The notes under the pieces were generated by a model. The model saw only the letters and a list, made by a program, of their open reading frames with translations. It was not told where the DNA came from and ran no database searches. Both the position numbers and the translations under genes were made by a program. A stretch of DNA of 62,949 bases, the filler included, from Kipferlia bialata (lineage: Eukaryota), in NCBI GenBank assembly GCA_003568945.1. It is 6 parts of 6 records of this genome, joined end to end, with 100 filler letters (N's around TTAATTAATTAA, not from the genome) between each part and the next. Parts side by side here need not be neighbours in the genome. Positions count along the whole stretch, not along the records: positions 11,475 to 22,843 come from BDIP01001248.1; 5 more parts are not named here. One strand, 5' to 3'. Of this stretch, positions 10,849-57,049 are shown in pieces. Within the stretch, counting starts at the first letter, position 1. Every line of letters starts with the position of its first letter.

Positions 10849-10882
<34 letters not shown>

Positions 10883-10968: not shown

Positions 10969-11119
10969 CTGGTATTAGAAGTATATATATATATACTATA
11001 TTAACATTTGAAATATGACAGAGACACTATATGATAGGGGAAGTCTTGGAGAGAGAATGAGAGAGCGAGATTGAGAATCATATCAATTACAACTGTGCCC
11101 CTGGTATTAGAAGTATCTA

Positions 11120-11157
<38 letters not shown>

Positions 11158-11374
11158 TATAGTTATGATAAAGACACAGCGCAATGATGGCGAGATAGAG
11201 AGGATGAGAGAGAGAAAGCTACTGTCTATTAAATAGACTCTATTTAGGGTAGTGCTCTTGTGAGAAGAATAGAGTGAGAGAGTAGGAGAGAAAACAAAGA
11301 GAGTTAATCACTGCAATAGGAGTGCCGCAGGGGGGGGGGGAGGAGGAGAGAGAGAGAGGGAACAAAGCAACCTC

Positions 11375-11474: not shown

Positions 11475-11780
11475 GCACCATGCAGCGCATCGAGACCAGA
11501 CTGGCATAGTATATGTACTCATATATATATAGCCTTATATACTATACATTGTCTGATACCAGGCACCATGCAGCGCATCGACACCAGACTGGCAGAGTAT
11601 ATGTACTCATATGCGTATACATATATATACATATAGCCATATATATATATATATATATATATAGTCTTACACCAGGCACCATGCAGCGCATCCAGACCAG
11701 ACTGGCAGAGTATATGTACTCATATACTTATACACATATATATATATATAGCCTTATATATATATACTGTCTGATACCAG

Positions 11781-12028
11781 GCACCATGCACCGCATCCAG
11801 ACCAGACTGGCTGAGCTCAAGGTCGGTGGACCAGACTCCCAGGACCAGCACCTGTTCCTGAGGTATAGACATATATATATACATATGGTGTGATATATAC
11901 TGTGCTGTTTTGTGTGTGTGTGCACTAACCACCAGGTCTGCCCTTCTGTCTGTGCAGAGCCTCTCTCTGTCTCTCCCTCTCTATCTCTCTCTATACTTAC
12001 CCCCAGGTCTGCCCATCTGTCTGCGCAG

Positions 12029-12059
<31 letters not shown>

Positions 12060-14475
12060 ATGTATATATATATATATACATATATACTTATCCATAGGTC
12101 TGCCCTCCTCTCTGTGCAGGGTGTCTCCAAGTGGGTCAAGAGTCACGGAGGTAGGAGTCTATCTAAGAGTATTTCTTACACTCAGATGCCGCCAAGGCAG
12201 GTGCCGCCTCTGCCGAGCCTGGTAGTACCTATCTCTCTCTCTCCCTTCCTCTTCTTTTATCTAGTGAGTCATGTGTTAAAGTCCTTTCTAACAATCAGAC
12301 GCCGCCAAGGCAGGTGCCGCCTCCTCTGAGGCAGGCAGTGCCGAGGAGGCCAGACTCACACGCATAGCAGAGGCATGTGCATGGGTCGCCACAGAGGTAT
12401 GGATTATAGTTAACTATATATTATATATATGGGTTAGGATATATATAGATATGAGTAGCAGAGGCATGTGCATGGGTCTCCACAGAGGTATGGATTGTAT
12501 ATTGAATACACATTATACATATATATAAGGCCAGACTCACACGCATAGCAGAGGCATGTGCATGGGTGGCCACAGAGGTATGATATTGAGTATTATACAC
12601 ATGTATATGTATATGTATGATTTGTATTCATTTTTAGTGCATGTACAGGTATACGCATTGCAGTGGCATGTGCATGGGTCGCCACAGAGGTTAGTTGATG
12701 TCAATATATATACACACACACATATATATATATACTATACATAGAGAGAGATATAGTACATATATAGATATGAGTTGCAGAGGCATGTGCATGGGTGGCA
12801 ACTGAGGTATGTTATGTGTCATTGTTATATATGATTTGTTCAGAGCTTTATCTCTCTCTCTCTTACCACTACTGACTATAGGTCCCCCGCACCTTCTTCG
12901 AGGCCATGCAGCTGTTCTGGCTGGTCTACCTGGCTGGCAGGATGGAGGGAGCCAACCTCGGATACAGCCCTGGGTATGTGTATATTAGTGTGTATATAGT
13001 ATATATTATATATATGTGTATATATGTGTGTATGTATCTGGCTGGCAGGATGGAGGGGGCCAACCTGGGTTACTCACCAGGGTATGTGCATATTATGTNN
13101 NNNNNNNNNNNNNNNNNNNNNNNNNNNNNNNNNNNNNNNNNNNNNNNNNNNNNNNNNNNNNNNNNNNNNAATATAGTGTATATATGTGTATATATATGGC
13201 AGGCAGGATGGAGGGGGCCAACCTCGGATACTCACCTGGGTACGCAGATCTACTATTGCTATATATATATAGGTGTTTGAATGCCTTACTCATCCCCAGC
13301 CGTTTCTGCGACTACATGCTGCCCTTCCTGTCCGATATATATATTAAAATATCTATATATTATAGACATATATATATAAATATCTGTATATGAGTATGTA
13401 TTCTTATGCCCCTAACCCCTAGACGCTTCTGCGACTACATGCTGCCCTTCCTGTCTGATATTGGATATGGATTATAAATATACATATGTATGTTTACATA
13501 TATATATATATATATGGGTGTGTGTATATATATGTATACTCTCTCTAGTGCATATACCCCTAACCCCTAGACGCTTCTGCGACTACATGCTGCCCTTCCT
13601 GTCCGATGAGGACAAGGACGAGGACGTGCTGCTGCTCCTCAGGGCACTCAGAGTGAAGGTATACAGTGGCCTCATCTACTGTAGCTAGATAGATATCTCG
13701 TACTTGCATACATACACATATATGATTGTGCTATAGTGTCCTCACCCCCAGATGACTGAGCTCGAGTACGTGGCCAGTTTCAGCTGGTCCGGTCTTGGAT
13801 CTGGGTGAGTGCTCTCTTTGCATATAGACTCATACATCATAGTGATGATACAAATATATATCCTACATACATCGATATTGTGCTCTCTATGTATGTAGGA
13901 TCCTCTGTCTTAGTATAGCCACACTGTCTAACCCACAGCAACAACTACCAGAACCTGATCATCTCTGGCCCCGATAGTAGACTGGCCAGACTCACAGTGC
14001 AGGCAGCCATAGACACACCCACCATCCAGGTAAGGATGTAGTGAACTCTATTGAACTCTATTGAATATCTATAATATACTTCAATTATTGTATACGTGTA
14101 TATACACTACCATTGTATGTACCAACCCCTAGCACACCCTGTCCATCTGGTACGAGAAGGACGCGTACCCTCATTCATATATATACTCTCTATCTACGTG
14201 TTCATAGTATATATATATAACTACTCCGTAGAGTATTCCCTCTTATATCTAGCCCACTCTGTCCATCTGGTACGAGAAGGACGCCTACTCCAAGGAGTTC
14301 CTGGACCTGGCCGTGGACTGTGTCAAGACAGGTAATGGTGCAAAGTAATTATATATACATGTATATGTATATATACATATATTATTTATCTATTATATGT
14401 ATATATATGCATAAACATTTTTGGAGTTCCTGGACCTGGACGTGGACTGTGTCAAGACAGGTGGGGATTGGCATA

Positions 14476-14524
<49 letters not shown>

Positions 14525-17500
14525 CCTTCTAACCCCTAGGCATTGGCTTCCCTGCCTGGTCCAACCTCCCCACCTACTATCTCTCTCTCTATCTCTTTCT
14601 CTCTCTCTCTTTCTCTCCATGTACATATACCTTCTTATGTCAGGCATTGGCTTCCCTGCCTGGTTCAACCTGCCCACCTACATCCAGCACGAATTGGAGG
14701 CATCCAAGAGACACGGGCTGGAGAAGGTCATTACTGAGGAGGTGATCAGAAAGAGAGCAGGTACATATGTGGATATGTATATATATATATTACTAGTATT
14801 CGGTATTTCTACGCAAACCTAATGACTTTGTATGCCTTGTCTATATATGCTTTCTCTCATACCAGCCATGGGTGGATGCACCGAGCCCACCCTGGGAGGC
14901 ATGAGCTATGGGGTGGTACAGGCAGGTAGGGTAGAAGATTAGTATTGTATTATATGTATGTGTACAGTATAACCTACACTGGGTGGCATGATGTATGGGG
15001 TGGTACAGGCAGGTAAGGGAGAGATTTATGATGTATTTCTAAGCGGGTTTTTTACTAAATATACTGTTACAGTCTCACATCCAGGCTTCATCAACCACCT
15101 GAAGCTGTTTGAGCTTGCCCTCTATGGTGACATCGACCCCAGGACAGGCAGGGTGTTCACAGAGGGGGTGGCTCTGCCCCAGACAGTCGAGGTACACATT
15201 GATATATAAGTATACATATAGTCATATTTGTAGATGTATATGTGTGTATACCAGGACAGGCAGGGTGTTCACAGAGGGGGTGGAGGTTCCACAGACTGTG
15301 GAGGTATCTCTTTCTCTCACACACACACATACGCACTGTATACTAATTTCCATTGATTGACATTGACCCAGGGCTGTCAAGGCCAGATACATCGCTGTCC
15401 CTCATATCTCGATCTCTCCATCTCTCTAATATATATATATATATATGTTTGTATATATATCTATGTATATATATATACCCCTCACCCTTAGGACGTCAAG
15501 GCCAGGTACCTGGCTGTCCTTGAGAAGACAGTGCACTGCTGGACACAGTACTGGAACCTGGTATGTATATGTATAGCTATAACATATATACTATATATAT
15601 ACTGTCTTACTGATATTTCTATGGATATACACTGTATATTGGAGAATGTCAGTGCACTGCTGGACATATTTTGTATACACACCTTATCACAGGTCATGGC
15701 TGCCCACAGACAGACCGTGCCCCTTGTGTTCACAAGTGCCATGATCCAGGTATATGACATAGTATTCATAGTATATATATAGTGTATATAGTGTATATGG
15801 TATACATGGTAATTGTTTAGACTGTGCCGATTGTGTTCACAAGTGCCATGATCCAGGTATTGTCTCAGCCTGATTGGTATATATACTAGTATAGTACCTT
15901 CCTATGTGTTGCATTAACCCCAGGACTGCATTGGCCGTGGCAAGAGCATCGATGACGGTGGAGTGGTCATTGGGCACTCTCCCACCACACTCTCAACAGG
16001 TATGTACATGCACCTACGATCTATTATATAAATTCTATTTGTTCTCATATATATACCTCACTCTTGGCATGGTCAATGTGGCACTCTCTCTCTCTTTCTT
16101 TCTCTCTCTCTCTATCTATCTATGTATATACCTCACTTAAGGCATGGTCAACGTTGCCAACTCCTTCGCTGCCCTTGAGTCTCTGTCTGCCGGGGGTGCA
16201 TCCATGGAGGAGATAAGGGCTGCCCTCAAGGTATTGAGTGACCGATACATATAGTAGTATACTATACACAGTAAATAGTGCATAACACCTAACCCCCAGG
16301 CCAACTTCGTTGATGGGGAGGATGGTGCTACCGACTACGAGAGACTCAGACGCGTGGGAGGTATGTATGGATAGGGTATACATGCGCCAAACTCTCAGTC
16401 AGTCTCTACGAGTTGCATATACTCACCCTCAGCCTCTACCCCCAAGTGCGGCATGACTAATATAAGAGTATATACATACTATGCTGTTATTACTATATGT
16501 GTCATGAAAATGATTAATACTCTATACATATTTCCAACCCCCAGCCGCTGCCCCCAAGTGGGGCAACGATGATGACAGGGTGGACACCTGGTTCACAGAC
16601 CTCTTCGACAAGTACTGCAAGGTGTGTATATATACATTATTATATTATATGTATGTATATATATATATATATATATGTGTATTCTACCCATACCATTGCT
16701 GTAGTACTCCTCTGTCTCTTCCTCGCTCTCATTGTTCTGACCCCAGGTCGTCAGGATGTCTCTCTTTACATGTATATGTGTATAACTATGTGCTATCTAC
16801 CATCTGTGGTTCTGGTCTTTCATTTATACATGAGGCACTTACCCCAGGTTGTTAGAAAGCAGACCAACTTCCTCGGAAAGCAGTACGACCCAAGGTATGG
16901 TATATATTACCCTATTTTACCATATTAAATAGTAAATAATGACTGAGTACCCCTTACCCCTGCATGCTGGCCATCTCCACCCACTAGTAACCTACCGTAA
17001 TATCATACCATATTAGCTGTCTTCTGTGTATATAGTTATTGTAGCATTATAGTACTCACCCCCAGCATGCTTGCCATCTCCACCCACGAGCCATTCGGCA
17101 GGGCATGCATTGCATCCCCAGACGGAAGGTACGCGTGTATCTCGGGGAATTTGGTATGCATCTCGTGACTCACCCCAGGCTTGCAGGCGAGACCCTGTGT
17201 GACGGTGTGACCTATATATTCATAGAGCCATATATATTAATATACAATGTGTTATGCAACAGTGTCTCTATACGAGTATATTCACCCCTAGGCTTGCTGG
17301 CGAGACCCTGTGTGACGGTGTGACGTCTCCCTCCAGAGGCACAGACACCCAGGGGCCGCTGGCTGTGCTGCACTCGGCTGGCAAGGTATGTGTATGCATA
17401 TATATATATATGTATACATATGTATGCAGATTACTATCTCCCACCCCCAGGTCGACCACACCCAGATCAGAGGAGGCCTCCACAACATGAGGTGGGGACA

Positions 17501-18444
17501 TCATATATATACAGTGTACATTCACTCTACCAATAGTGTCATTATTTGACCTCGTCACTCTGTATCATTGAAGAAGTGATTGTATATGTAGTATATCTGA
17601 TGCGTAGGTTCCACCCCTCTGCCATTGCCGGTGTCAGAGGCACCAATGCCTTTATAGTATCTCTATCTGATACGTATGTCTTATATATATACAGTATATA
17701 TATGTGTACCTTATGCGTAGGTTCCACCCCTCTGCCATTGCCGGTGTCAGGGGCACCAATGCCATGCTGTCTCTGATCGAGGGGTACTTTGCAAGTGGCA
17801 AGGGGTTCCAGGTGTGTATATTATGTGTGCAGTGCAACTATCCACGTAATCTATATTACTCTGTTCTCACCCCCCAGCTCCAGTTCAACGTCATCCTAGT
17901 TACTGGCCATTCACTCTTGATATAGTGTACTATACTGTATACTGTATGTGTATATACTATATATATATATATAGTATTCTCTATCCTCACTCCCAGCTCC
18001 AGTTCAACGTGATCCCCACCGAGATCCTCCTGGATGCACAGAAGCACCCCGAGATGCACAGGTAGTGTACTAAAGATAGACTGTATATACATATTAATAT
18101 ATATATGCTTGTGTGTGTCTATATTCATTTGTCTGTAGTTATATGGATACCCCGAAGCACCCAGGTTTGCAGTTGACGAATCCCTCTAACCCTCAAGAGA
18201 CCTTCTGATCCGTGTGTCTGGCTTCAGTGCATACTTTGTGGAGCTGTCCAGGGGCGTGCAGGACGAGGTATATAGTGTTAATACATGTGTATTCATTGTA
18301 TATATCTATATAACCTCAGGTCATTGCCCGTACCACCCATGGCAACATCTCGATCTATCTATCTATCAATCAATATATGTGTATAATATATATATATATC
18401 TTGTATGCATGTCTCACCCTCAGGTCATTGCCCGTACCACCCAT
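11781..18444 (+). other. GRE catalytic (PFL-like barrel + glycyl radical) portion of the fusion gene
   Basis: Cys loop GGCTEP and RVSGFSAYF followed by QDEVIART, where stand-alone GREs normally end. Confidence 0.92.
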
Positions 18445-21400
18445 GGCAACCTGGGCCAGGTCACACCCACGGGGGAGAGTGTGGCTCCTAAGGAGGTTGG
18501 TGTATCGTATATATACTATCCATATGAACTATATGGTAATATGAATGCATAGTATAGTATTTGGTATATTGGTGTATTGGTTGTAAGTATTCTAACAGTC
18601 AGGTCACCTCCGCCAAGGGTCTCAAGCCCCGCTTCCCCGGTGCCTCTCTCTCTCCCTCCGCGGGCGAGGCAGTGGTCTTCAACGTGCAGGACTTCTGCCT
18701 AGACGACGGACAGGGACTCAGATCCAATGGTGAGTACACGCTTATTATAACTACACACACGTATATATGAATTTACATATATCTACATATAGTGCAGGAC
18801 TTCTGTCTGGATGACGGACAGGGACTGAGGTCTAACGGTGAGTAGATGTATGATATGTCTATGTTGGTATATATATAGAGAGGATAGAGGAGGGGGAGGG
18901 GGGGTTGGGACTGAGGTCTAACGTTATGATGTGTTTCATATGCAGTATTAGCACAAAAGTACTTCTTTTCTAACCCATTCTTCTTCAAGGGCTGCCCCTT
19001 GCGGTCTATATATATTAGTGTGACTGTAATACATGTGTTTATGAGTCTAACTCATTTGCCTTGTATATGTCTAATAGTCAGTCTTCTTCAAGGGCTGCCC
19101 CCTGAGGTGTGGGTGGTGCGGCAACATCGAGGGAGTCAGGCTGAACCATGCAGACGTCATGGTGGACACGGACAAGTGCAGGTATTGCTATATATATATA
19201 GTGAGAGACTATTATACTATATACTATGGTATATGCGTATATGTATTATACTGATGCATGTATACCATGCCAATGTCTTGGTGGACACCGATAAGTGCAC
19301 CGATAAGTGCAGGTATATGCTGTGGTGTATGTGTCTATGTGTATTATAAGAGAGTCTCACCCTCAGCGGCTGCCACGGCTCCTGTGACTCTGTGACTGCC
19401 TGTACCCATGGGGATATCACCATGGAGGACGGCACTCCCTCAGTGCATTGCAAGGACATTGAGTGCCTCACCAAGGTATATATACACACACACAGTAGTA
19501 TATATATATATATATATAAACATATTTAACACTTAGGCCGCTGCCCAGTGCCACAAGGGCAACCTCAGGCTGTGCGGTCAGATCACCACCCTGCCTGCCC
19601 TCCTGGCCAAGCTGCTCAAGAACAAGCCATTCTACGGCACTAGGTACATATATACAACATATGTAATATACTATATATGTACTATATATAATACAGTACT
19701 ATACTTGTCCTGCTAGCCAGGCTACTGAAGAAAAAGCCATTCTACGGCACAAGCTACAGTATATATATGTATTGTGGTATGTATACTATTTACTATACAC
19801 ACTATTATACAATACCCTCCCTGAGAAGCTACTGAAGAACAAGCCGTTCTACGGCACAAGGTGGGATACGGTATTCATATATACACAATTCTATTCATTA
19901 TGTGAGTGTGTAGCTACAGAATTAGTCTAATATTCCAGAGGAGGTGTGACCCTCTCCGGTGGTGAGCCCCTTGCCCAGCCCTCTGCTGTCTGTATCGTGA
20001 CAGATGAGCTAGTCTCAGCCGGAGTGACTGTGTGCATAGAGACATGCGGACAGTGGGAGTGGACTAAGGAGATCGAGGTATGTATGTATATATACTCTAT
20101 AATACATGTGTAGTATGGGTCCCTGATGCATATACTCTTGCATATTCCTCTCAACCCCCCTCTGACCAGTGTATAGATATGAATAGTACCCCCCCCCATC
20201 TCTGACCCCCCAGGAGTGCCTGGGCAAGATGACAACCATCTTCTTCGACTGCAAGGTATGTACATGCTAGAATATATCCATACATATTCATAATATGTCT
20301 TTTCTCTTACATATGGATGTTTATGCCTATCTGTCGAGTATCTCACCCCAGGCCATCGACTCTGCCCTCCACAAGCAGGCCACTGGCAGGGGCAACGAGA
20401 CCATCCTGGCAAACCTCAAGGTATATTGATCCTTACTATCCTTGTCTCACGTGTATACTGGGTGCCCATGGTCACTTTACCAGGCCTAGTAAGTCCCTAA
20501 CCGTCAGAAGTGTGCCGAACTATGTGTATATATACTGTGAGATACACTCTTATGCTATGTAGTAGTGTGTATCTAACCATCAGAGGTGTGCCGAACTTTA
20601 AGTTATATATATATATATATACTCATATGCTATATGATTGTCCCTAACCCCCATAGATATACTCTGATACTATGTAATAGTGTATCTAACCATCAGAGGT
20701 GTGCCGAGCTCTTCCCCCAGACCCTGGTGGTGTCTGTCCCAGTCATCCCAGGTAGTGTATACTTTACGTAGACTATACTATGCATATATACATGCCTACA
20801 GTGATACCAGGTAGCATACATATGAATGCCTATATATATATATATATACGTATGTAGACACTATGTGTGTGTATCATATATATATGTATACTTTGAGACC
20901 CTGGTGGCGTCTGTCCCAATCATTCCAGGTATACAGGGCAAGCTATAAATACATATACTATATACATATACTATATACATATACTACACTATATGCACTA
21001 TGTACTGTTTTCTAAACCCAGGCCTCACCCTTGGCGAGGCCCCCGCCCTCTCCTCCACCCTGACTGGCTATGGGGTACAGAGGATGAGACTGCTGCCATT
21101 CCACAGCCTCGGAGACTCCAAGGTATTGGACTCTAACCAATCATATATGTCTCTCTATATACTAAGCATATTTCACTCTGTATGTGTTCTCTCTCTCACC
21201 CCCAGTGGGAGCAGCTGGGCGGTGCCGGTCCCTATGCCGGGTGCCACCTTGGGGCCCAGGAGTACGAGGGGGTGGAGGTGAGTATATACATTGTACAGTT
21301 GGATACAGTATATGTGTATAGCATATAATAGTACCTGTTGTGTAGTATATACTGGATGTCACCTTGGGGCACAGGAGTACGAGGGGGTGGAGGTATGGTG

Positions 21401-21538
21401 TATACTTATCCTATGGTGTGTATAGTCTGTAGTGTATGTGTTTATTGTCGCTTGTCTGTATACGCTCTCTCCCTCTCACCCCAGGCCGCCATGGCCCTGG
21501 GGGGTGTCAAGGTGTGCACACACGACGACCTCTGCTAA
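11781..21538 (+). CDS. Glycyl radical enzyme fused to a C-terminal GRE-activating radical SAM domain (5' partial, ~36 exons)
   Basis: Hand-spliced peptide includes PRTFFEAMQLFW, GYSPGRFCDYMLPF, QPTLSIWY, GIGFPAWFN, Cys loop MGGCTEP (Cys codon 14877), APKWGNDDDRVD, SPDGRLAGETLCDG, QLQFNV and glycyl loop LLIRVSGFSAYF (Gly codon 18220). It continues without a stop into VFNVQDFCLDDGQGLRSNVFFKGCPLRCGWC (CxxxCxxC, 19096-19119), a Cys-rich insert, GGVTLSGGEPLAQ, IETCG, FFDCK, PVIPG and LLPFH. Stop TAA at 21538. Confidence 0.92.
18603..21538 (+). other. GRE activating enzyme (radical SAM, long form with ferredoxin-like insert) portion of the fusion gene
   Basis: DGxGxR, FFKGCPLRCGWC, GGVTLSGGEP, ETCG and LLPFH motifs typical of the PflA/GRE-AE family. 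Confidence 0.92.
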
Positions 21539-22281
21539 GGGGAGAGAGAGAGTCACAAGGGTAGGCGTCACGTAGTGCTAAGCCTAGTACTTTGGTAGTG
21601 AGGACGTTATTGAGTGTGTGTGTGGGTTTGTATGTATGATGTGAGAAGAACAAGTGGGGGAGTGTGTGTTTGCACCTGGTGCTGTTCGGTCAGGTGGAGT
21701 TTGCGCCCTCTGCGTTAAACTGTTGTGTTGGAGAGGTGAATGAGAACAGAGAGAATAGATGCGTGTACGGAATATTCAAGTGTTAGTACCAGATAGTAAT
21801 TCTCAGATGTGTGGCAAATGGTGTCAGACTAGTTCAATTAGTCTAATAATGTATATACGTCCCCCACAAGTGATAGACACATAGAAATTTATACACTGGA
21901 TCCTCGTGGAAACAACAACACATACATGGAATGCACTAGAGTAGGTAACACCACACACAAGGTGCTACCACTAGCACCAACCCTCTCCTTCCACGCTGTA
22001 GCACCAGATGTGGTTAGACATACTCATGAGAGTACCAAATGGACTCTTCCACGTACCCGTAGACATCTCTCTCTCCCTCTCCCTCTCTCCCACGCACTAG
22101 GTGTAACGAATACCATGTCCACACCGAGACAGTGAGGGACATCACGAAAGCCTGATCTACCCAATGCATACAGTAGGGAATACCCAATACCTTCGCTTCT
22201 CTGCAAACCCTCTAATACAACGTGCCCTTCGTCATCAAGAGGAAGCACTCTCTCTCTCTCCCTCTCTCTCTCTCTCTCTCC

Positions 22282-22756
22282 CTATAGGAAGTACTCTGGC
22301 ACGGCCCGTCTGGACTGGGACCCTCTGGCATGGAGGGGGGCAGCCTCGAAGACAGTGAAGTTCCTGGTACATTAGTGTATATATATATATAAAGAGAGAG
22401 ATACACTCAAACCCACCTGTTTCTGAACTCGTCCAGCTCCAGGATGGCAGCCACGTTCTTGCACCTGAGGGTAAGTAAATAGCCATGTAACCAGTAGCAC
22501 ATATACAAAAACATGCGACTACATATATATAATACATTATATAATTAGACAATACCTGTAGCAGTAGTTGGGTGCACTCCACACTGCATACATATACTCA
22601 CTATGCTATCTATGTGTATGGTTGTGGGTGTATACCTGTAGCAGTAGTGTATATATATATATGTGTGTATACATTATATAGTATGGTAATACCTGTAGCA
22701 GTAGTTGGGTGCACTCCACACCGTGACCAGCTGGGAGTCAAACATGAACTGGTAGC
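22282..22756 (-). CDS. PPP4C: PP2A-family Ser/Thr phosphatase catalytic subunit, PP4-like (3' end only, three exons)
   Basis: Exons give [75 protein letters not shown] and terminal YFL mark PP2A/PP4/PP6; TVWSAPNY with [10 protein letters not shown] is closest to PP4. Confidence 0.88.
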
Positions 22757-22843
22757 CTGGGGTTAGAGTATGTATACATATACATATACATACACTGAGG
22801 GAGAGAGAAAGGGGGGGGGGGGGGGGGAAAGGACAAAGGGGAG

Positions 22844-22943: not shown

Positions 22944-23117
22944 GGAGACGTGTGGCTCTCTGCAGTGCAGAGAATTCACTTTACCCCTGCCCCCCCCCCC
23001 CTCTCCCCCCAACCACGAATTTTCAAACTACGCATATACTATTCTCTATGGGCTATTCCTATCCTATAACTCTCTTATAGACACTTCTCTCCCATCACCA
23101 ACAGCCCCTCTTATCCA

Positions 23118-23150
<33 letters not shown>

Positions 23151-23189
23151 AGTGAGTATATAGATGTATATGAATATATCTAACCTCAG

Positions 23190-26100
23190 TACCTCCTGCT
23201 GTAGTGAGGAAGAGGCTGGCGTCAATGAGCACATCCCCCCTGCACACAGGGCCGAGTACACACGTCGCGAGACCCTCTACAAGAAGAGGACAGCTGCCCT
23301 TGTCTCTTGTCTCAAAGATCTGCAGGAGCAGAGAGACGAACAAGAGGTACTCCTAGCGAGAGATTGTGACAAGTACCGTATCATTCAAAGGACGGTCTGA
23401 TCTTGCGATGTTCATATGTTTTCGTTCTGTTGTCTCTTCTCACTTCCAGAGGCGTTATCAGATGTCCAAGGACAAGCTGGAGGGGTCTAGAGAGATAGCA
23501 ACACAGGTATAGTCCGTAGGATTATATCATTACCGTAGTGTATTATCCGCTAAATCCTCTTCCTCTTTGTCTCTCTCCCCCTCTCTCTCTTACTCCAGTC
23601 CGGTAGATGTCTGGCCGTTGCTGTCATTTCTCTCGCGGACAGAACCGCAGAGCTCGCTAGGGTAGACCAAGCAATGTGAGACGTCAGATGTATATGTATT
23701 CTATGACCAGGGTTCTGACTCAACGTCTTCCCATCTCCACTCCAAGTTGTTATCATAGTACTTCTCTGTTTCTACAGCTGACTTACAGGATGGATATTGA
23801 GTCACAGTATTCTCCCTCTCATGTGGGCTCCCATGCCTATGCACTGGCCAAGATAGTCCGTGACAGATGCGAAGGAATCCTTGCAGCTTCCAAGGACCAT
23901 CTTGCCAAGGTATGAAGAGTAAGTGCAAAGTGCTATTCTTGTATTTATGTCCCAACCCAGGCATCAGACCACGCAGAGGAAGTCATTCTCTTAGAGGATA
24001 GGGGTTTTAGCCAATTGACCAAATACCGGCAGGTAAGAAATGTATTCGACATTATAGTATGTGGTGGTAACCATTGCCTCACATCAGTATATTTTTGCTG
24101 TCGACACCTTCATGAGTGATGCAGAGATGGAGCTGAAGAGAATCCGAGAGGACGTGTTTGCGGACCTCGCTCGGGAGTACATGTCACAGGCTGGACAGAA
24201 GCGTCAGCTAGAGTGGAGGCCTGATTGCCCTCAACCACCCAAGAAGCGTCGCCCGCCAACAGAGAACCCACAGGATGAGGGTGATCTTCTAGGACGTTCT
24301 TCAGGGTCGTTTCTGGATGGATATATGGCTGCTATGAGGGCGGGTGAGGTGGTGGCTATCAGGCCACACTTCGGAGGCTTTGTCTTCTGGGTGAAGGAGC
24401 ACAATAGTATGTCACAGGTCAGTGCTGCTGTGGAAAGGCGCTGGAGAGAAGTACTTGTGGGTAGGGAGTTGCTCAGCATCCGTCTGTCGGCGGGAAGAGA
24501 CTGCAGGGTCACATATCAGTTCCTCTGGGATGCTATAGAGGCCTATGAATACGTGTCCAGCCCAAGAAGGGCTCAGATGGTACGTATACATTCATAGTTG
24601 TATCTAATTCATATCCAATTCATATCTATGCTCAGGGTTGTATTTCTGGTATCCCCGTTGTTTGTCCATCTCATGCTAGGAATATGACATCACAGAGAGG
24701 CCTGACTATATGAAGGGCCTCTTCAGTGCCAAGATCAATGTCATGGATGCTACCCCCTTCCTATATGATGGGACAATGACGATGGATACTGGTGATGTGG
24801 GCAAGTGGATGGCTAGTGTTGCACAGCCAAGGGAGAGTGGTGTAGGACATCTCCCTCTGTTCCAACATTCTCAGGGTATGAGGGGGGGTAGCATGTCTAC
24901 TGTGGAGAGGAAGGTTCCTACAGATATCCTGGATCTCCTCTGCTATGCAGCGGGTGTAGCTGTTGGTGAGACTCTTGACGACTACTGTCATCTGGTCTAC
25001 TCATCTGAGGAAGAGACTGGTATCATTGACTTTCTGTCACAGTGGCTTGGAGGGCCGGCACTACACGTGATAGATGGAGCATTTGGGTGCGCTCCTCTCC
25101 CTCGCCTGTTGATCAGACGGTCAGAGGAGAGCCAGGTATGTCCAACTTCACTTTTCTTATCGAATATTGTTGCTTGGCATCAGAAATCACTGATACTGTT
25201 ATGAATACATATCTTGAAACCACACTGTATTCCACATAAATCATACACCCTCACTTCCAGTGTATCAGCAAAGACACCCTGGATCAGTGGAAGACATTCG
25301 GGATTCCCATTCTTGTTCTCAAGCGCGCCCCTAGTCAGACAGAGAAGAGACCGTCAGAGGTACGCTGTTCCACATACATATATATACATACATATGGTAT
25401 CGCACCATTCCATTGTAAGTTTATGTTGTACACTATTGACCAGACTAAATCTTCACATCTCACTTCAGCGTAGAGGCAATGGCATCATTGGGGTGGCTTT
25501 GGAGGAGTTGCAGCGCTACAGGTTGGAGAGAGGAGATGAGGTAAACACCAAAGCAATACATAAGTGGAAGACGATAACTAATGCCAGGGTTTAGCCACGT
25601 CTCTACTTTGGAACCACAGGGATCGTCAACACATGCACCACCGTCACGTCGGTGTTGACTATACTACCTCCCGTCTTCGGCACCAGGTACTCCTCTCATG
25701 GGTGTTTCGATGTATCTTCACACATATGCCAGGATTGTGTCAATGAGAGAGTATTCCTATGTTGATGTAACCCTAGGCATGTGACCCCCGAGAGGAGATC
25801 CATGACGGACTCTTAACCCAAATGGCCGCAGGAAAGAGGGAGGAGGACTCTGCTCTGGCTGAGAGGAACGTGATGGACAGAGACGCCGCAGACGTCATGC
25901 TGGTTATGCCAGAGAGCGTGACAGATGTCACATGTCAGAGGGACAAGCCACAGAGGCAAAGAGAATCAGCCGAGATCTCGTCCAACGATCTGCGGTCTAT
26001 GATCGATGACCTTGGGGTCCAGTTGGAGGAGCGACAGAAGAGGTGGATGTCTGACGCAGCCGAGCGCGAGCGTCTGCAGGCCTCCGTGACCCAGCTTCAG

Positions 26101-26605
26101 CACGACCTCACAGAAGAGAGAGATGCATCCACTGAACTTAGTAGGGTGGTGGCTAGTGTCACTGAGGAGCGAGACACCCTAGCGGAGGAGGTACAGGACC
26201 TGAGAGTTCAGGCTGAGGGATATCAGAGACATGAGGGCTCAAGCATCTACAGCGAGAGCCACCTTGGAGAGAGAGGCAGAGAGACACCGCGCTGAGATTG
26301 CAGCTCTGCATGAGGCACATGCACTGGAGTATAGGGAGTTAGTTGACTATGAGGCTCGAAGGAGGGAATGTCTGTCCTCGCTCAGAGACACCATTCGCCA
26401 GAGGGATCAGGAGAGAGATAAGGCAAAGCAGAAGTTACAGAGAGTGATCAAGAAGCGAGAAAGGACGTGTCAGGAGTATAGGGCACGTATCGAGATCCTG
26501 CAGCGGGAGCTTGCGAGGTGGGACGAGACCGGTCGTAACATGCTCGAGCCTCTGTCTGAGGCGGACGAAGAGGCAGGGTCTGTAGAGGTAGTAGATGTGG
26601 TATAA
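23190..26605 (+). CDS. Multi-exon hypothetical protein(s) ending in a coiled-coil region
   Basis: Long GC-richer exons (about 24105-24579, 24696-25136, 25779-26605) with short introns and an E/R/L-rich heptad C-terminus. May be more than one gene; the frame changes near 26230. Confidence 0.5.
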
Positions 26606-26728
26606 TTAGCATGGGAGTGAGAATAGGTATGGTTAGTATTTCTGCCTGAGTACTGAAGGTCAAGTAGTAAATGTAGTCAAGAATGTATATTGTGTTCGGT
26701 ACTCTCGCCGAGACTCAAATCTCTAATA

Positions 26729-28660
26729 TCAACTCATTAGTATCGTGACTCTCATAATCCCAACGGTCGCAGTATGATTCTTATGTGAGTCAAGTGGAGT
26801 ACTCTCAGAGTACGCTGAGTCGTCGCCTAAGCTGGCGTAGTCCTCAGAAGACTCCTCGTCCCCATCATACTCCATCCCGGGTACCAGCTGTTCTGTGTCA
26901 TACTCTATCACAGTGACACGGCATGTACCTTCAGTGTCCATAAACTGCAGTGCGTGCCTTAGATACGGGACAGAGGGAGAGAGGGAGAGGGACGACACGG
27001 AGTACAGGAAAGCCGCACTAGCACTCACTACCATGGCATACTTTACCCACTCCCCAGATACAGTATCGTGTAGGTACACAGATACAGAGCTTGTTGCGTT
27101 GACTCCATCTCTGTACCAGTTACATATATCTCTCGCTGATTCAGGGCTGTAGTAGCCGACGAGGTGCCTAGTGCCCAATGGGAACACCCAATGGAACTGC
27201 ACTGGGGTAGGCTCTCCCTTGCTCAGAGTGCGTACTCCACCTGGGAAAGACAGGCGATACATCTTCATTCCAGTCTTTTGATGTCTGCATAGGTAGGCAC
27301 TCTCTCCCTGCTTGACGACTATGAAGGGCTCTTCCCCCCGATACTTGAAGTCCAATCCGGTACACTGCCAGTTGGGTTGCCCAACGCTAGTGTCAGTGTC
27401 AGAATGAGTCAGGTGGCTGATATCCAGACGCCACAGGTGTGCATATTGAGATTGTCTGTTACGCCTGACAGATGGGTAGCCAAAGCAGAACAGAGAGCCG
27501 CAGAGCTCGAACATCTGACCAAAGCACAGACGATGGATATCGTTCCTATAAGGAAAGTCACATACACGCTCAAAGGGGAGAGAGTTCAGGTAGCGACGGG
27601 TCTGGCGTGGTGGGTACTTGATGTGGGAGAAGATGGAGTCTACAGGCAACCGCTCTGTCCTCTTCTGGTGGAACTCTTCCCTGTAGAGGTAACCCCCAGA
27701 GACAACGCAACTGAATGGAATGGTGTAGTTCAGCCCGGTGCCTGACTGAGCCATCTCGCCTGTCACGTGGCCGTCCTCAGAGTCTGTAGTGACAAACAGA
27801 CAGTACCCTGGGTCGTCCTGGGAGGGTGAGTAGGAATAAGTGTAGTGATATATATATATGCAACACTCTCTTACATACTAAAATATATATATATATGAAG
27901 AGTACCCTGGGTCGTCCTGGGAGGGTAAGTAGGGATGGGCCATCCAGTAAGTATACATATCAGAATATTTCAACTCATAAGAAATATAAACACCATCGCT
28001 GAATACTATTTTATGCAACAATGAATATATATATGCAGTACCCAACGTTGTCCTGGAAATAGAACTGGACAAGGCTATATTGGTATACTAGGACATACAA
28101 ATAGAGTTGCAAATCAGGCTCGTCCAGTTACATATATAATGCATATATATATATATATAATGTGTAGTATCGACGTATACTATTTACTATTCTATACTAT
28201 ATTCTTACACTATATTGTGTAGATATAGTGCTGCCCACCTGGCAGTACTCGCCACACACATACACATCGCATATATATACATGCATAGTTTCGCCATACA
28301 CTATACATTAATATACAATATATATGCAATATATACTATTCGTATATATTGCCCACCTTGCAGTGCTCGCCACAGAGCAAGGCGGTGTTGTCACTGAGTG
28401 GCATGCATTGCAGATGGCCCCACATCTCAAGGACATCTCCCAAGGGCTGATCCACAGACTGCATACGTGATTGGGTGATGCGGATCCCAACCTTATCCTC
28501 TTCATACCTGGGAGTGAGTACAGTAGATGGTAAACATATCAGATAACGTGGCAAATATTCCCATGTATCTGCTGGTATTGGAACTATTCTTCGGGAGTCA
28601 CATACCTGGATCGGAACGTCTTGGCAGTGAATGTCCCTGCCAGATAGCCGGAGTAGTCTG
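26729..28660 (-). CDS. Hypothetical protein, possible divergent beta-propeller (probably 5' partial)
   Basis: A 1.09-kb terminal exon (27817-26729) contains the 345-aa ORF and follows a CTCACCCTCCCAG acceptor. Upstream exons lie at ~28355-28507 and ~28605-28660. Beta-rich with an acidic tail. Confidence 0.6.
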
Positions 28661-33843: not shown

Positions 33844-33877
<34 letters not shown>

Positions 33878-34244: not shown

Positions 34245-34295
<51 letters not shown>

Positions 34296-50705: not shown

Positions 50706-53700
50706 ATGTCAAACCTGGGTGGATGGCGTCGTCTAACAAGAGAGAGAGCTATAGAGGAGAGAGAGAGCTATAGAGGAGAGATAATTAGAGAGAGAGTGGG
50801 TGTGTTACTAACCTGGGTGGATGGCGTCGTCTGGCCTCTGGAAGAAACGGAACTCGGGGTTGGAGACAAGCTTGAGAGCAACCTAGAGGGTGAGAGGTAT
50901 TAACTAGTGTGTTGGAGCGATGGTATGTCTGTGGTTTTTAGTGGATGAGTATAACACACAGAGGTATACACTGTATATATATATACAGCTTGTACTCTCG
51001 CAAATATATAAGACAGGTATACATATTATCTGTCCATATACATATATACACACCTGGTGCCCCTTGTCGTCTGGGTGAGCAGAGGTGTCGCGCACACCCA
51101 CACACACACATATATATATTAATATGTATATATACATATGTATAAGGTATACACACACATATATATATATATATATCCATATATACCTGGTGTCCCTTGT
51201 CGTCTGGGTGTGCAGAGGTGTCGCACCAGCCTGGGACAGTGATGGTGGAGGAGATGTCATCCTCCATCTGGTGCTGATATTAGTACAAATGAGAACAGCA
51301 TAGCATGATACACATATATACATAAGGATACAAACATATATGTAGGTGATGATGGAGGAGATGTCATCCTCCATCTGGTGCTGGGGTGAGAAGGGTATAA
51401 TAATAAGCTATGTGTATAAAACAATACAACAAAACACATATACATGCATTGATGTGTGTATAGAGTATGCTACCTTGCGGGAGGGAGAGAAGTCGGGCCT
51501 CAGGAGGAAGTTCCTCCAGGAGCCGTCGGGGGTGATACCCACACGGAGGTAGCCTAAGGGTGAGGAAGATGTGGTATATATGTCAATGTATATACATGGT
51601 ATATGGTATATGGTATATTTGAGTCAATGGGGGTGATACCCACACGGAGGTAACCTTAGGTGTAAGTATAGAGAAGGAGTATACATTGGAAGGCTTCGTG
51701 ATGATCCAATAGAACATAGGGTACAACTATCTCTAACCTGCTCTCATCCTCTTTCCCTTGTACATCATACACCAATATATGAACATAGTATATTGTATAT
51801 CATATCATACATATAGATACATATAGTATACCTGCTCTCATCCTCTTTCCCTTGTACAGCAGCTGGTGGCCTGGCTTTCCGTTGACAATGTCAACAGAGA
51901 ACCTGGTGTGCCAGTCCTCACCCCAGTCGGCCTAGAAGTAAGGATAATAGAAATATAGAACACATACAGAGACATCCTCGGTGGATACATATACATATGT
52001 ACACCAAATACAACACTCATTCACAAACATGTATATATATATATACCTTGTAGAGAGCCTTGAGGGTCAGGACGAAGGTCCTGGCCTCGGCGGGCAGGGA
52101 CCTGAGCCAGGCGTTGTACTCAGGGGTGAAGTAGACCTAGGGTTAGAATATACATAGTATATGATAGTATATATATATTATACTTAGTATATATATGCAG
52201 TGGACCAGGCGTTGTACTCGGGGGTGAAGTAGACGGGTTAGAAATAGAATAGTACATTGGTATCACGAACACATAGTGTCACGTACATCGTCGGGTGTGA
52301 GAGCATATATACATATACATACCAATATATATATATATGTATATGGTATAATATAAACCGTTCTACGTACGTCGTCGGGTGTCAGGAGCTTGATGACGGA
52401 ACCCAGGGACCTGTCGGGGGACAGGATGGCCCTAGGGGTGAGAGAGGGGTCAACATGTATATTAACAACAATATATCAACAAGAATCCCAGCCAAATATA
52501 TACACAATTTCTCTAACGCACCCTCTTTGAACATGAATGTGTTTATGAACATGAAAGTATTCAACAAAAACTCACAAAAGAAAAGGCGTTAGTCGTATGA
52601 GGACAATACCATATTCATATACATGTAATAATATATATTACCTGCTCTTGTGCTCCTCTCTGCCGTCGAACAATGATTCAACCAGACATACATTATACAA
52701 TGAATACAAAATACAATATATATATACATATATATACACTATATACACTATTATACACTATATATGTACATTCATAGAGTATACCTGCTCTTGTGCTCCT
52801 CTCTGCCATCGGGAACGGGACGGTGGTCCTCGAACCTGGGGGTAAGTGATACACACATGAAATATCATACATATGAGCTGTAAACTTGCACTTGGATTTA
52901 GAGTTAATGCTATCATAATATGAAATATTACCTCTCGTAAAGGTTCTTGGCCAGGATCTCCTTGGTTGCCTTGATACCTGTGCCCATATACATACTATTA
53001 TACATAGTATTATTATCTTACTAATGTAGTTAGTTTCTCTACCTCTCGTAAAGGTTCTTTGCCAGGATCTCCTTGGTTGCCTTGATGACTGTGTCCAGGT
53101 CAGACACAAAGTAGCCAGCGTACACAATGGCAGCCTCGATGGGCTGGAATGAGAGAAAGGGTATTAGCTTATATGCACACAATAACTCATAACATCGGGA
53201 AAATGAAAATGATTATATAACTGGGAAGGACACTAGTCTCAAGGGAACTATTGAAGTATATATATACATACATACCTTGGAGATCTCGCTCTTGCCTCCA
53301 CCAGACACAGTGGCTGGCTTGTGGACAAAGAGGGCCCTGGAGATAAGGGGGGCAGAGAGAGGGAAATAGTATATGTATATATATATACATATTGAAAACA
53401 AATATATATGGACAAAGAGGGCCCTGGGGTAAGAGAGAGAGAGAGAGAGAGAATAATGAAGGCGTCAGTGACCCTATATAAATGAGAGTGAATAGAGCGC
53501 TATATATCCACCTTGGGTTTGTGCCGATGAGCTGCCAGACCCTGGTCTTGGAGTTCTTGACCATCTGGACCTACAAGGTTAGAGAGCACATACTAGTAAA
53601 TAATGAATGTATTTAACATTTACACAGGAATATGAATACACACCTGGTATCCGTTGGGCATCATGTAGATGACGTTGGCCTTGAGGGGGGTGGTGATCAG

Positions 53701-54295
53701 CTTGTCTGGACATCAGTATAAGGAAGAGATAGTATATAGTAAATGTGTTAAATGTATATAGTGTATACACAATGTATGTACCTGATTTGAGTGGGGGGGG
53801 GGTGGGGGGAGTGTCATTTGCAAGCAATAGTGCATATATACTGATATACTAATATATACTGTATGTGATCTGTACTATACCTGTGTCTGGGTGGTTCCAT
53901 GTGACATTGCGGTCAGGGATATATTCACATATATTCATATATATACATCATACGGGCACTATATAGATATATGAATATAGACATATATATATATAGTATA
54001 TGGGATATATACAATACATACCTGTGTCTGGGTGGTTCCATGTGACAGTGCGGTCGGGGATGGACATCTTGAGGGACTGGGGGTGAGGACAATACATAAA
54101 CACACACATATATATATATATGTATGCATATACTGTACCTCAGGGGTGTAGATGATCTGGTTCCCGAATCTCTTGTCTGTGCTGCATCCCAGCTCAGCAT
54201 CGTAGTCCATCAGGGGGCCCAGGCAGCGCCTGATATTAGAATGTGTCTAAAAACAGTATAATACATGTACAGAATATAAAAATAGATAGTAATAG

Positions 54296-54327
<32 letters not shown>

Positions 54328-55527
54328 GAATAATATGTATGTATGTATATATGTCAGCATCGTAGTCCATGAGGGGACCAAGGCAACGTCTGATGTTAAA
54401 TATATGTATATATATACTAATATATATACTATATACATATATTAATATATGTCAGCATCGTATTCCATCAGGGGACCAAGGCAACGCCTAGTATTAATAT
54501 ATATAGAGAGAGGTATGTATGTATGTGTGAATGTATGTATCTATGCTTGTGTCAGCATCGTAGTCCATGAGGGGGCCGAGGCAGCGCCTAGCATTAATAT
54601 ATATGTATATATATACTAATATATATACACATTTAAAATATATGTCAGCATCGTAGTCCATCAGGGGGCCCAGGCAGCGCATGATATTAGAATGTGTCTA
54701 AATACAGTATTATACATGTACAGATTATAAAACTAGATTACACTATCGATATGAATGTAAAGTGTTGTGGTGGATTAGGAGGCCAGGGCAACGTCTGTAA
54801 TCAGCATCCACACACACACATATACCATATATATTCTTCTATAAGTATCAAACAATGGACAATGCTACAATGAAAACCTAGAGGTACCTGGTGTTGGAGA
54901 ACTTGGTCTCCCTCCTGGCAATGCGACTGTCCTGAGGGGTAAGAGGGATGTGTTATGTTAGCGACTGCAGAATAGTGCAATTGATGCCAACGTTAATAAC
55001 TACACATACACATATGTATATATATATATGTATATATATAATGACACTGTCGCGTACTGGGTAGAAGGACTGGCCGAGCATGTACGCACAATATATACCC
55101 ATATTCATATCTATACATATGATAACACATATTCTTTGATAAAATATAGTATATACACTGTCACGTACTGGGTAGAAGGACTGGCCGAGCATGTAGGAGG
55201 ACTCAACGATGGCACCACCTGGGAGATTAGAGGATCAGAGAACACCAAATAATATACCAGAGTGAATTGGGAGAATACAAGAGACGGTGATTGGGATAGA
55301 AATGCATAAATACTATCAAGTCTTACCGGCGTGCTCCTCCTCGCAGAACCCAAGGCGGTTGGCAGCGTAGGACAGCATGCCCTTGCACTACAATAAGGGT
55401 GTAGAGAGAGAGAGAGAGATATAGAGAAAGAGGACAGCATGCCCTTGCACTACAATAAGGGTGTAGAGAGAGAGAGAGAGAGATAGAGAAAGAGGACAGA
55501 ATGCCCTTGCACTACAATGAGGGTGCA

Positions 55528-55564
<37 letters not shown>

Positions 55565-55917
55565 AGAGAGAGAGAACTCGTACCTCCTTCTTGGCGTATC
55601 CGAGGTAGGTGTCAGCGATGATGGTGATGATGGTGCCTGGGGTGAGAGGGTTAGAGACCAAGTAAAGAAGAGGAGACAATACCCAGCATACAGACTGATA
55701 CTGATACTGATGACTGTATATAAGAAACACTGCATCATCCGAAAGTGCTGAAGACTAGTACCAACATACCCTCGTGGCGGTAGACCAGCTTGAAGGGAGA
55801 GCCGGAGTGGTACTTCTCGTTCTCGTCCTTGTAGCACATGCCTGGGGGTTAGATAGGGTATATATATATGTATATATATAGACATAGATATATATATATA
55901 TGTATGTATAGACAGGA

Positions 55918-55949
<32 letters not shown>

Positions 55950-56347
55950 TGGTACTTCTCGTTCTCGTCCTTGTAGCACATGCCTGGGGGTAAGAAGAGG
56001 TTCATACCCATACAAAATATATTGAGAGACAGAGAGATAGAGAGAGAGAGACTCTAGCCTCGCAATACAAGCCTGGGGATAAGGGACATGATGACAGGAA
56101 CAGATACATATATATATATATACCATACCGGACTCCCTCTGGTGGGGCAGGGCATCCTCCCACTTGGGAAGGCCAACCTCAACCTAGGGTGAGGATGATG
56201 ATGAGATTGATAACGCGAATTATTGATGAACAGAATGATTCTGAGGCTGGTTGTATACCTTGGTGAGGTCACGGAGGTGGGGGGCGAAGATGATGCAACC
56301 GGTGGTGCCTGAGTGAGTATATAGATATATAGGAGTATTATATAGAC

Positions 56348-56378
<31 letters not shown>

Positions 56379-57049
56379 AGGGCGAAGATGATGCAACCGG
56401 TGGTGCCTGGGTGAGTATAGAGGTAGAGTATGAGAAAGATAGACGGGGGTTCCACAATCAAATGCACACACAGAGAGAGAGAGAGAGAGACTGACCTGCA
56501 AAGTGGGTGGGGTCGAGCATGAGGTCGTTCTCAGGCAGCCAGGGGTCGCCGCCGTTACCGAACACGTGCTAGGGTCAGAGAGAGAAAGAGATAGGAGGCA
56601 TAGTTACCAAACGCATGAAGAGGATGGTAGGAAGAAGGATATACAGTGTGAGACAGCAAGTGACACTGTGCGTATGCGAGAGAGATAGACATATATAGGC
56701 AGCGACTGTACCTCGATGAAGTCGAGGCAGGTGGTAAGGGAGCCAGGAGCAAAGGCCCTGAGGGTAAGTCAAAAGACATCATGAGACACACACCCACATA
56801 CACTTGTCAAAAGTCGAAAGCATCAAATGCATGCGCCATATACGAGAACTACACACCATATTTCCATCTTCTGCTCTGCCTGGAATCCCCAGACACCTGG
56901 GGACACACTCATAAGTATATACACACTATATATATACATATAGTACACTATATACATATAGTACTATACCTGATCTCCATCTTCTGCTCTGCCTGGAATC
57001 CCCAGACACCTGGGGACACGGTGGGGGTGAGGAGAAGGGAGGCCCAGGC
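45840..57049 (-). CDS. Pyrophosphate-dependent phosphoenolpyruvate carboxykinase (PPi-PEPCK / PEP carboxytransphosphorylase), partial at both ends, many exons
   Basis: Spliced peptide [78 protein letters not shown]... then [104 protein letters not shown] and [12 protein letters not shown]. These are recognisable motifs of the Entamoeba/Propionibacterium PPi-PEPCK family. Confidence 0.9.

What the first reader, a model, noticed from the sequence alone, without database searches (positions are those of the whole stretch)
18684..18837. Intronic exon copy differs from the used exon only at synonymous sites (GRE-activase gene)
Seen: exon end 18684-18729 GTG CAG GAC TTC TGC CTA GAC GAC GGA CAG GGA CTC AGA TCC AAT G|gtgag is repeated in the next intron (18792-18837) as GTG CAG GAC TTC TGT CTG GAT GAC GGA CAG GGA CTG AGG TCT AAC G|gtgag. 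There are seven differences, all third-position and silent. A neutrally decaying duplicate should not show this bias. Inference: the copy comes from a sequence that was under coding selection (a divergent allele or paralog inserted by recombination/repair), is still used by unusual splicing or as a gene-conversion donor, or is a haplotype-stacking assembly artefact.
Basis: seen in the sequence. Interest (0 to 1): 0.82.

Follow-up and report, generated by a model that had tools for sequence, protein, structure and literature searches.

The report
Introns archive pieces of other alleles
In three genes of a free-living protist, most introns hold unused half-copies of the neighbouring exon that differ from it mainly at silent positions, likely because they were copied in from other working versions (alleles) of the same gene, which would make them a record of past genetic exchange in a group where sex has never been seen.

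Summary
Confirmed: 18792-18837 repeats the exon end 18684-18729 plus its donor, with 7 of 7 differences silent. The gene is a Kipferlia bialata glycyl-radical enzyme-activase fusion. The copy is one of 105 half-exon copies, found in 60 of 97 introns of three genes. The one RNA contig skips it. DNA contigs bridge two neighbouring copy-exon pairs at even depth, but not this one.

The silent bias is general. The 0-fold/4-fold divergence ratio is 0.16 for exon versus copy (neutral duplicate 0.53-0.58) and 0.16 for copy versus copy. Copies carry different but valid splice sites and mostly unalignable intron flanks. They also hit invariant residues, so they look dead now.

Best reading (0.6): fragments of diverged working alleles left by one-sided recombination. 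No donor allele was found.

The geometry matches amphioxus "mirages" (PMC3087553), which this scan has noted before in other animal genomes. The allele-like signature is the new part.

The parts
11781..21539 (+). Host gene (5' end cut by the contig edge): glycyl radical enzyme fused to a radical-SAM activase, 36 exons here
   Evidence: Exon model translates exactly to P0002; named for Kipferlia bialata by NCBI; Pfam PF02901, PF01228, PF04055
18603..18729 (+). Used exon; its last 46 nt (18684-18729) are the duplicated part
   Evidence: RNA contig covers it with 0 differences and splices from its donor
18730..19081 (+). The 352-nt GT-AG intron that is removed whole, copies included
   Evidence: RNA joint skipping 352 nt, GT..AG
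18730..18791 (+). Used donor plus 62-nt AT-rich spacer; reading through it meets a stop
18792..18844 (+). Focal copy: 46 nt of exon end with 7 silent differences, plus an intact donor GTGAGTA; the flank beyond it aligns no better than unrelated introns (score 10, control mean 9.1)
18907..18923 (+). Short re-copy of the focal copy: same silent variants, donor broken
18979..19005 (+). Copy of the next exon's first 27 nt, 2 silent differences, acceptor lost
19082..19181 (+). Next used exon
   Evidence: RNA contig; P0002
34454..43415 (+). Second copy-rich gene (leucine-rich-repeat-like with a coiled-coil-like tail, label by eye); copies in 18 of 21 introns; exon model not checked against RNA or a database protein
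45842..57049 (-). Third copy-rich gene, a PPi-dependent PEP carboxykinase; copies in 22 of 41 introns
   Evidence: model equals P0122 at 921 of 921 aligned residues; PDB 6k31 and 8e1u, E<1e-200

Best explanation
The copy is real intronic DNA that the assembled mRNA skips, one of about a hundred half-exon-plus-splice-site copies, and it was likely left when recombination with a diverged working allele of the same gene likely began in the exon and likely ended by a non-homologous join in the intron. Between diverged alleles the exons would be the only good homology. A broken end would pair in the exon and copy about 100 nt of the other allele across its splice site. It would then be joined back by microhomology, often beside TA, CT or GA runs, without removing the resident half-exon. 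Later unequal exchanges would add or swap units. The product survives only if it is a half exon on the correct side (exon start upstream, exon end downstream), so that one complete exon remains and is chosen. The orphan half is born with allele-type differences (silent sites, another valid splice site, another intron) and then decays neutrally. Shown: geometry, density, silent bias, valid-but-different splice sites, skipping in the RNA contig, damage at invariant residues. Inferred: allelic donors, the repair pathway, exon-definition splicing, and which of the two halves came from the other allele.
For: (1) Exon versus copy: 0-fold sites differ at 73 of 1997 (0.037), 4-fold sites at 121 of 527 (0.230), ratio 0.16. 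Block bootstrap over 71 arrays gives 0.11-0.22; a simulated same-chromatid neutral duplicate with similar detection gives 0.53-0.58. Counting each exon site once gives 0.19, p 6e-10 against 0.5. The bias holds in each gene and for each base. (2) Copy versus copy, where neither is the used exon: 34 of 849 against 58 of 236, ratio 0.16, bootstrap 0.07-0.35 over 22 arrays. One-lineage duplication cannot go below about 0.5 (my derivation). (3) Copies' splice sites differ from the used site at 37% (acceptor, n=55) and 31% (donor, n=48) of positions yet keep consensus scores: 7.8 and 5.0, against 9.1 and 6.3 for used sites and -2.8 and -0.4 for random changes. AG is kept in 48 of 56 and GT in 45 of 49. 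(4) Intron flanks beat all controls in only 30 of 101 copies; 8 of 45 copy-copy flank pairs reach score 18. Simulation puts the typical flank near 25-40% divergence, against 4% at 0-fold sites. (5) One AGC/TCA serine switch. Nine of 28 amino-acid variants occur in homologs (null 18%, p 0.05), for example Q6E where 91% of homologs have E. (6) PMC8516963 (passages): metamonads lack Ku-type end joining, examined fornicates lack Rad51A and have two Dmc1 paralogs, so homologous repair likely dominates.
Against: No donor was found. One search lists no other letters and no second-allele contig in either run over 17400-19470 (with filter holes). There is no close paralog, and the metagenome scans gave 0 matches and 10 distant loci at 27-44% identity. 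Arrays often hold three flank classes, which needs several very divergent alleles, about 20% at 4-fold sites; no population data exist here to show that. The microsatellite signal at the inner junctions is weak (0.51 against 0.46, p 0.004). The statistics rest on three genes picked because they are copy-rich, one of them without an independent exon check, and on short ungapped alignments.
Confidence: 0.6

Rival explanations
1. The copies are still under protein-level and splice-level selection, because they are sometimes spliced in or act as conversion donors or spare parts when an array collapses.
For: A ratio of 0.16 and kept splice consensus are also what current selection gives; private variants are silent-biased too (0.25). 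The focal copy has an AG just before it and would add 15 residues in frame. The public model P0122 includes one copy as an exon.
Against: The RNA contig skips every copy in the laid stretch. Inclusion of the focal copy would duplicate a conserved activase motif. Copies carry P186H, A205D, F219S, S264M, L340I and W429C at columns 93-100% conserved. BLOSUM mean -0.43 against a null of -0.67 to -0.63, not significant. No excess of exon-start GT (7 of 36 against 14 of 61) or exon-end AG (25 of 33 against 53 of 64) as recursive splicing would need. A collapse rate high enough for selection to act would erase 23% silent divergence (reasoning).
Confidence: 0.13
2. Ordinary same-chromatid tandem duplicates (plain mirages) that decay neutrally while the used exon gathers silent changes; introns simply scramble fast.
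For: The geometry is that of tandem duplication: period 55-177 nt, median 107. Some units are young and align through the intron (30 of 101). The nearest copy is the more similar one in 14 of 22 arrays. An earlier scan note (e1-7880682) read a sea-urchin case this way.
Against: It predicts a ratio of 0.5 or more; observed 0.16 with upper bounds 0.22 and 0.35. It also predicts that a dead splice site takes half of the 31-37% differences at random, which the scores exclude. It would need dead copies to mutate about five times more slowly than neutral sites 100 nt away.
Confidence: 0.12
3. The donors were paralogs or homeologs (a hybrid or doubled genome since reduced or made homozygous), not segregating alleles.
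For: It gives the same silent bias and foreign introns. PMC5874029 (passage) reports two k-mer peaks, read as diploidy, for this species.
Against: No close paralog protein and no second version in DNA or RNA contigs over the laid stretch. Three unrelated genes show it, and arrays often have three flank classes, more than one partner genome would give within a decay time of about 4%.
Confidence: 0.11
4. Assembly artefact: two haplotypes stacked in one contig.
For: The focal junction is not bridged by any listed DNA contig. DNA run X1 may be the source of this DNA, so it is not independent. A 39-nt identical repeat across a short N gap at 47599-47692 looks like a scaffold overlap.
Against: One 135-nt contig (17608-17742) and one 131-nt contig (18317-18447) each run from a copy through the spacer into the exon with 0 differences at depth 429-448. 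Contigs over unduplicated exons have the same depth (437-441), and the stretch shared by copy and exon has 888. Arrays hold up to five versions.
Confidence: 0.04

Closest known systems
Amphioxus 'mirage' repeats (Adh3, globins BflGb6 and BflGb9, troponin C, PGBD5); PMC3087553 and PMC3902484, passages read; the original Adh3 paper was not held
   Same: Tandem copies of an exon-intron boundary, both 5' and 3' types; units of about 60-160 nt; many keep AG or GT; splicing is undisturbed; the mechanism is stated to be unclear.
   Different: BflGb6 units are 81-100% identical with concerted evolution. Here the intronic part is mostly unalignable, the splice signals are different but valid, and the exonic part is silent-biased even between copies. 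The density (60 of 97 introns in three genes) and the host (a metamonad protist) also differ. The passages I read report no silent-site test.
Human F7 intron 7 VNTR with silent 5' pseudo-sites (PMC1557585, abstract and outline only)
   Same: Repeated donor sites downstream of the real one stay silent; the most upstream donor is used.
   Different: One homogeneous 37-bp minisatellite, with no foreign splice sites or silent-site signature described in the abstract.
Tandem exon duplication with mutually exclusive splicing, and intron gain by tandem duplication (PMC8373072, PMC9013439, PMC4974935; search listing only)
   Same: Exon sequence repeated in the neighbouring intron; functional duplicated exons would also be silent-biased.
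   Different: No copy here is a whole exon (largest share 73%, median 41%), and the RNA contig shows no use and no new intron.
Aborted homologous repair finished by end joining (one-sided invasion, polymerase-theta-type tandem duplications); recalled, with search listing only
   Same: Gives a tandem duplication with one homologous and one microhomology junction.
   Different: Usually described with a sister template, which gives identical copies; the data here need a diverged template.

Membership tests
Mirage repeats | Tandem duplication spanning an exon-intron boundary, 5' or 3' | tested here: met
   56 upstream copies hold the exon start and 49 downstream copies the exon end; these are the 105 kept of 114 hits
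Mirage repeats | Many, not all, units keep AG or GT | tested here: met
   AG 48 of 56, GT 45 of 49
Mirage repeats | Normal splicing is not disturbed | tested here: met
   One RNA contig with six listed GT-AG joints, all from the full exons; rare isoforms would not show in contigs
Mirage repeats | Minisatellite-like units of high identity including the intronic part, with concerted evolution | tested here: not met
   Not met for the focal copy (flank score 10, control mean 9.1) or for most others; 22 of 101 exon-copy and 8 of 45 copy-copy flank pairs score 18 or more. A minority do fit.
Mirage repeats | Unit number differs between haplotypes or cells | not testable with these tools
   Only one sample is held, as contigs; no second haplotype seen
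Mutually exclusive tandem exons | Whole exon duplicated with both splice sites | tested here: not met
   Largest copied share of an exon 73%
Mutually exclusive tandem exons | Both versions appear in mRNA | tested here: inconclusive
   Only the upstream version is in the one RNA contig; contigs drop rare forms
Recursive splicing sites | AG-GT regenerated at the copy, so copied exons should start with GT or end in AG more often | tested here: not met
   7 of 36 against 14 of 61, and 25 of 33 against 53 of 64
GRE-activase fusion (host gene) | PFL-like, glycine-radical and radical-SAM domains in one chain | tested here: met
   fused homologs in Paratrimastix, Hexamita and Pelomyxa. No substrate-specific NCBIfam cut-off is reached.

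The most novel reading that the evidence does not exclude
The introns of Kipferlia's copy-rich genes are an archive of many highly diverged alleles, captured by a repair route that pairs in exons and exits in introns. One genome would then record repeated outcrossing and about 20% silent diversity in a metamonad, and the same inter-allelic route would explain why exon-edge mirages turn up in marine invertebrates known (from recall) to be very polymorphic.
Probability: 0.4. Interest if true: 0.78.

Novelty: new variant of a known kind. Interest (0 to 1): 0.58.

Why it matters
The origin of exon-edge repeats is stated to be unclear (PMC3087553). The copy-versus-copy silent-site ratio is a simple test that separates self-duplication from inter-allelic capture, and it can be run on any genome with mirages. 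[quoted passage not shown] Several foreign versions of one exon in one chromosome would be sequence evidence of past exchange and of large hidden diversity. The spliceosome here also ignores many good splice sites in 150-650-nt introns, which suggests exon definition in a protist. In practice the copies can mislead annotation: one public model includes a copy as an exon.

Tried and rejected
No whole genome is held, so genome-wide counts could not be made. The sequencing-run search listed no holder on record as RNA; X2 is RNA by guess, and its contig is spliced at GT-AG. DNA contigs gave no cover over part of the focal exon and no listed bridge of the focal junction; a hole proves nothing. The metagenome pattern scan for any allele of the focal peptide gave 0 matches. 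The related-locus scan gave 10 loci at 27-44% identity, none a close relative, and they were not used. Pfam on six single PEPCK exons gave 0 of 6, and Pfam and NCBIfam gave nothing for P0122. Rejected: composition or AT decay as the cause (bias holds for all four bases); detection bias (simulation); recursive splicing; exon-copy gene conversion alone (it would push the ratio towards 1, reasoning); a breakpoint codon-phase preference (none clear). Rows dropped: 9 of 114 hits were removed by eye before counting: one weak match to another exon's copy, two short internal exon pieces, five gapped pieces and one running into a CT repeat. The two internal pieces mean that not every hit is junction-anchored. 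Literature: ten searches listed no paper on such copies in Kipferlia or another protist, or on a silent-site test of mirages. In PMC5874029 'duplicat' and 'allel' occur 0 times. The library lacks most subscription papers, and no supplements were read; the repair-gene table of PMC8516963 bears on whether Kipferlia has alternative end joining.

Full report
Observation. The two stretches align without gaps at an offset of 108 nt, and seven of 15 codons differ, all silently at third positions. The window is a chain of six contigs joined by N-linkers (sequence). A search with the focal exon returned one protein, P0002, 100% identical and named glycyl radical enzyme activase of Kipferlia bialata. 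A 36-exon model translates to P0002 exactly. It is a PFL-like, glycine-radical and radical-SAM fusion with fused homologs in other anaerobic protists at 42-52% identity. For the species, PMC5874029 (passages and methods section) reports 124,912 GT-AG introns and two k-mer peaks read as diploidy; it does not mention duplications.

It is not unique. I built exon models for three genes: the GRE fusion, a leucine-rich-repeat-like gene (label by eye, model not independently checked) and a PPi-dependent PEP carboxykinase. Searching each flanking intron for ungapped matches to the exon gave 114 hits. I dropped 9 by eye and kept 105. Copies occur in 20 of 35, 18 of 21 and 22 of 41 introns. The 56 upstream copies hold an acceptor position and the exon start (14-48 nt); the 49 downstream copies hold the exon end and a donor position (15-65 nt). 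None is a whole exon. The period is 55-177 nt, median 107. The three host contigs have about 3 such duplicates per kb and the other three 0.1-0.3, in step with (TA)4+ runs at 4-5 against 0.2-1.4 per kb.

Real or artefact. Runs X1 (DNA) and X2 (RNA by guess) were laid on 17400-19470. Two single DNA contigs run from a copy through the spacer into the exon with no differences (17608-17742 and 18317-18447). Their depth (429-448) equals that of contigs over unduplicated exons (437-441), and the 38 nt shared by a copy and its exon has 888. The focal junction is not bridged by any listed record, and X1 may be the source of this DNA, so this tests the assembly step only. No other letters were listed, so no second allele was seen. 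The single RNA contig has six listed GT-AG joints, all from the full exons; one removes 18730-19081 whole, and the focal exon matches with 0 differences.

Is the silent bias more than expected? A neutral duplicate beside a constrained exon already gives dN/dS near 0.5, because the exon still gathers silent changes. My simulation with similar detection gives 0.53-0.58. Observed over 105 copies: 153 silent and 89 replacement differences, pN/pS 0.18; 0-fold 73 of 1997, 4-fold 121 of 527, ratio 0.16. The bootstrap over 71 arrays gives 0.11-0.22, and leaving out the focal copy gives 0.16. The bias holds per gene (0.14-0.19), per base and when each exon site is counted once (0.19). The sharper test is copy against copy, where neither is the used exon: 34 of 849 against 58 of 236, ratio 0.16, bootstrap 0.07-0.35 over 22 arrays. 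Serial duplication within one lineage cannot go below about 0.5 (my derivation). The focal 7 of 7 has p 4.9e-4 at 0.5 and 0.023 at 0.18.

The rest of each unit tells the same story. Copies' acceptors differ from the used one at 37% of 14 positions and donors at 31% of 6, yet they score 7.8 and 5.0, against 9.1 and 6.3 for used sites and -2.8 and -0.4 for the same number of random changes (p 3e-10 and 1e-8). Intron flanks beat all sampled controls in only 30 of 101 copies. Eight of 45 copy-copy flank pairs reach score 18, many arrays hold three flank classes, and simulation puts typical flank divergence near 25-40%. So each unit looks like a piece of a gene that worked for a long time in another lineage.

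But the copies look dead now. The 65 distinct amino-acid changes are no more conservative than random (BLOSUM -0.43 against -0.67 to -0.63, p 0.14-0.19), and one is a stop, in a doubtful hit. Against 119 homologs, GRE copies change six residues at columns 93-100% conserved. Nine of 28 variants do occur in homologs (null 18%, p 0.05), as expected if some were once working residues. Recursive splicing finds no support. The focal copy could be spliced in frame through the AG before it, but that would duplicate the conserved activase motif and the RNA contig does not show it.

Mechanism (inferred). Between diverged alleles only exons pair well. Repair that starts in an exon, copies about 100 nt of the other allele across its splice site and is closed by microhomology would leave a full exon plus an orphan half, in either orientation. 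Unequal exchange with further alleles would add units. Inner junctions are slightly richer in dinucleotide runs than other intron DNA (0.51 against 0.46, p 0.004), a weak signal. PMC8516963 (passages) reports that metamonads lack Ku-type end joining, that examined fornicates lack Rad51A and have two Dmc1 paralogs, and that sex has not been directly observed in the group. This makes the route plausible but does not show it. Against it, no donor was found: no close paralog, no second allele in the laid stretch, and no relative in metagenomes.

Comparison. An earlier scan note (e1-7880682) led me to amphioxus mirages. PMC3087553 (passages) describes tandem copies of 5' and 3' exon-intron boundaries that leave splicing intact, with units 81-100% identical, concerted evolution and an unclear mechanism. 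PMC3902484 (passage) adds PGBD5 and troponin C, and PMC1557585 (abstract) the human F7 case. The scan lists 68 such notes in at least 7 other genomes. The Kipferlia copies share the geometry and the silence, but most fail the homogeneous-minisatellite feature, so I file them as a variant and not as plain members. Ten searches listed no report of these copies in a protist and no silent-site test of mirages, within a library that lacks most subscription journals.

Verdict. The feature is real, general in three genes, unused in the assembled mRNA, and more silent-biased than self-duplication allows. Capture from diverged alleles is the best reading (0.6). Continuing selection (0.13), plain decay (0.12), paralog or homeolog donors (0.11) and artefact (0.04) remain. 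Interest 0.58; 0.78 if other isolates confirm the allelic source.

Noticed in passing
window 51380-51336 (- strand): The public protein P0122 includes this upstream copy as a 15-residue exon ([15 protein letters not shown]) just before the real exon start. It is probably a gene-prediction error caused by the copy, possibly true exonisation; no RNA was laid here.
   Followed up: partly
window 45842-57049 (- strand): A gene annotated as hypothetical protein is a PPi-dependent PEP carboxykinase (PDB 6k31 and 8e1u, E<1e-200).
   Followed up: yes
window contigs 11475-22843, 34396-45739, 45840-57181 versus 1-11374, 22944-34295, 57282-62949: Copy density differs ten- to thirty-fold between contigs and tracks TA-run density. 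The copy-rich genes have GC3 of 0.67-0.83. High expression may promote the events; untested.
   Followed up: partly
window 54229-54714 (- strand): Four-copy array in which the farthest copy is identical to the exon start and shares about 94 nt of flank (5 differences over the unit), while the three in between carry other silent variants and other introns, as if inserted later.
   Followed up: partly
window 11475-11815: All three copies of the first GRE exon have Gln where the exon has His; one has Glu at position 6, the residue in 91% of homologs, where the exon has Gln.
   Followed up: partly
window 11781-21539: Glycyl radical enzyme fused to its activase; similar fusions occur in Paratrimastix, Hexamita and Pelomyxa. 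The best family match is indoleacetate decarboxylase, far below its cut-off, so the substrate is open.
   Followed up: partly
window 47599-47692: A 39-nt identical repeat on both sides of a 16-N gap; likely a scaffold overlap, not a real copy.
   Followed up: no
window 57409-58755 and 61809-62029: An intron-free reading frame of 449 codons and an imperfect 15-nt coding-like repeat on the opposite strand.
   Followed up: no
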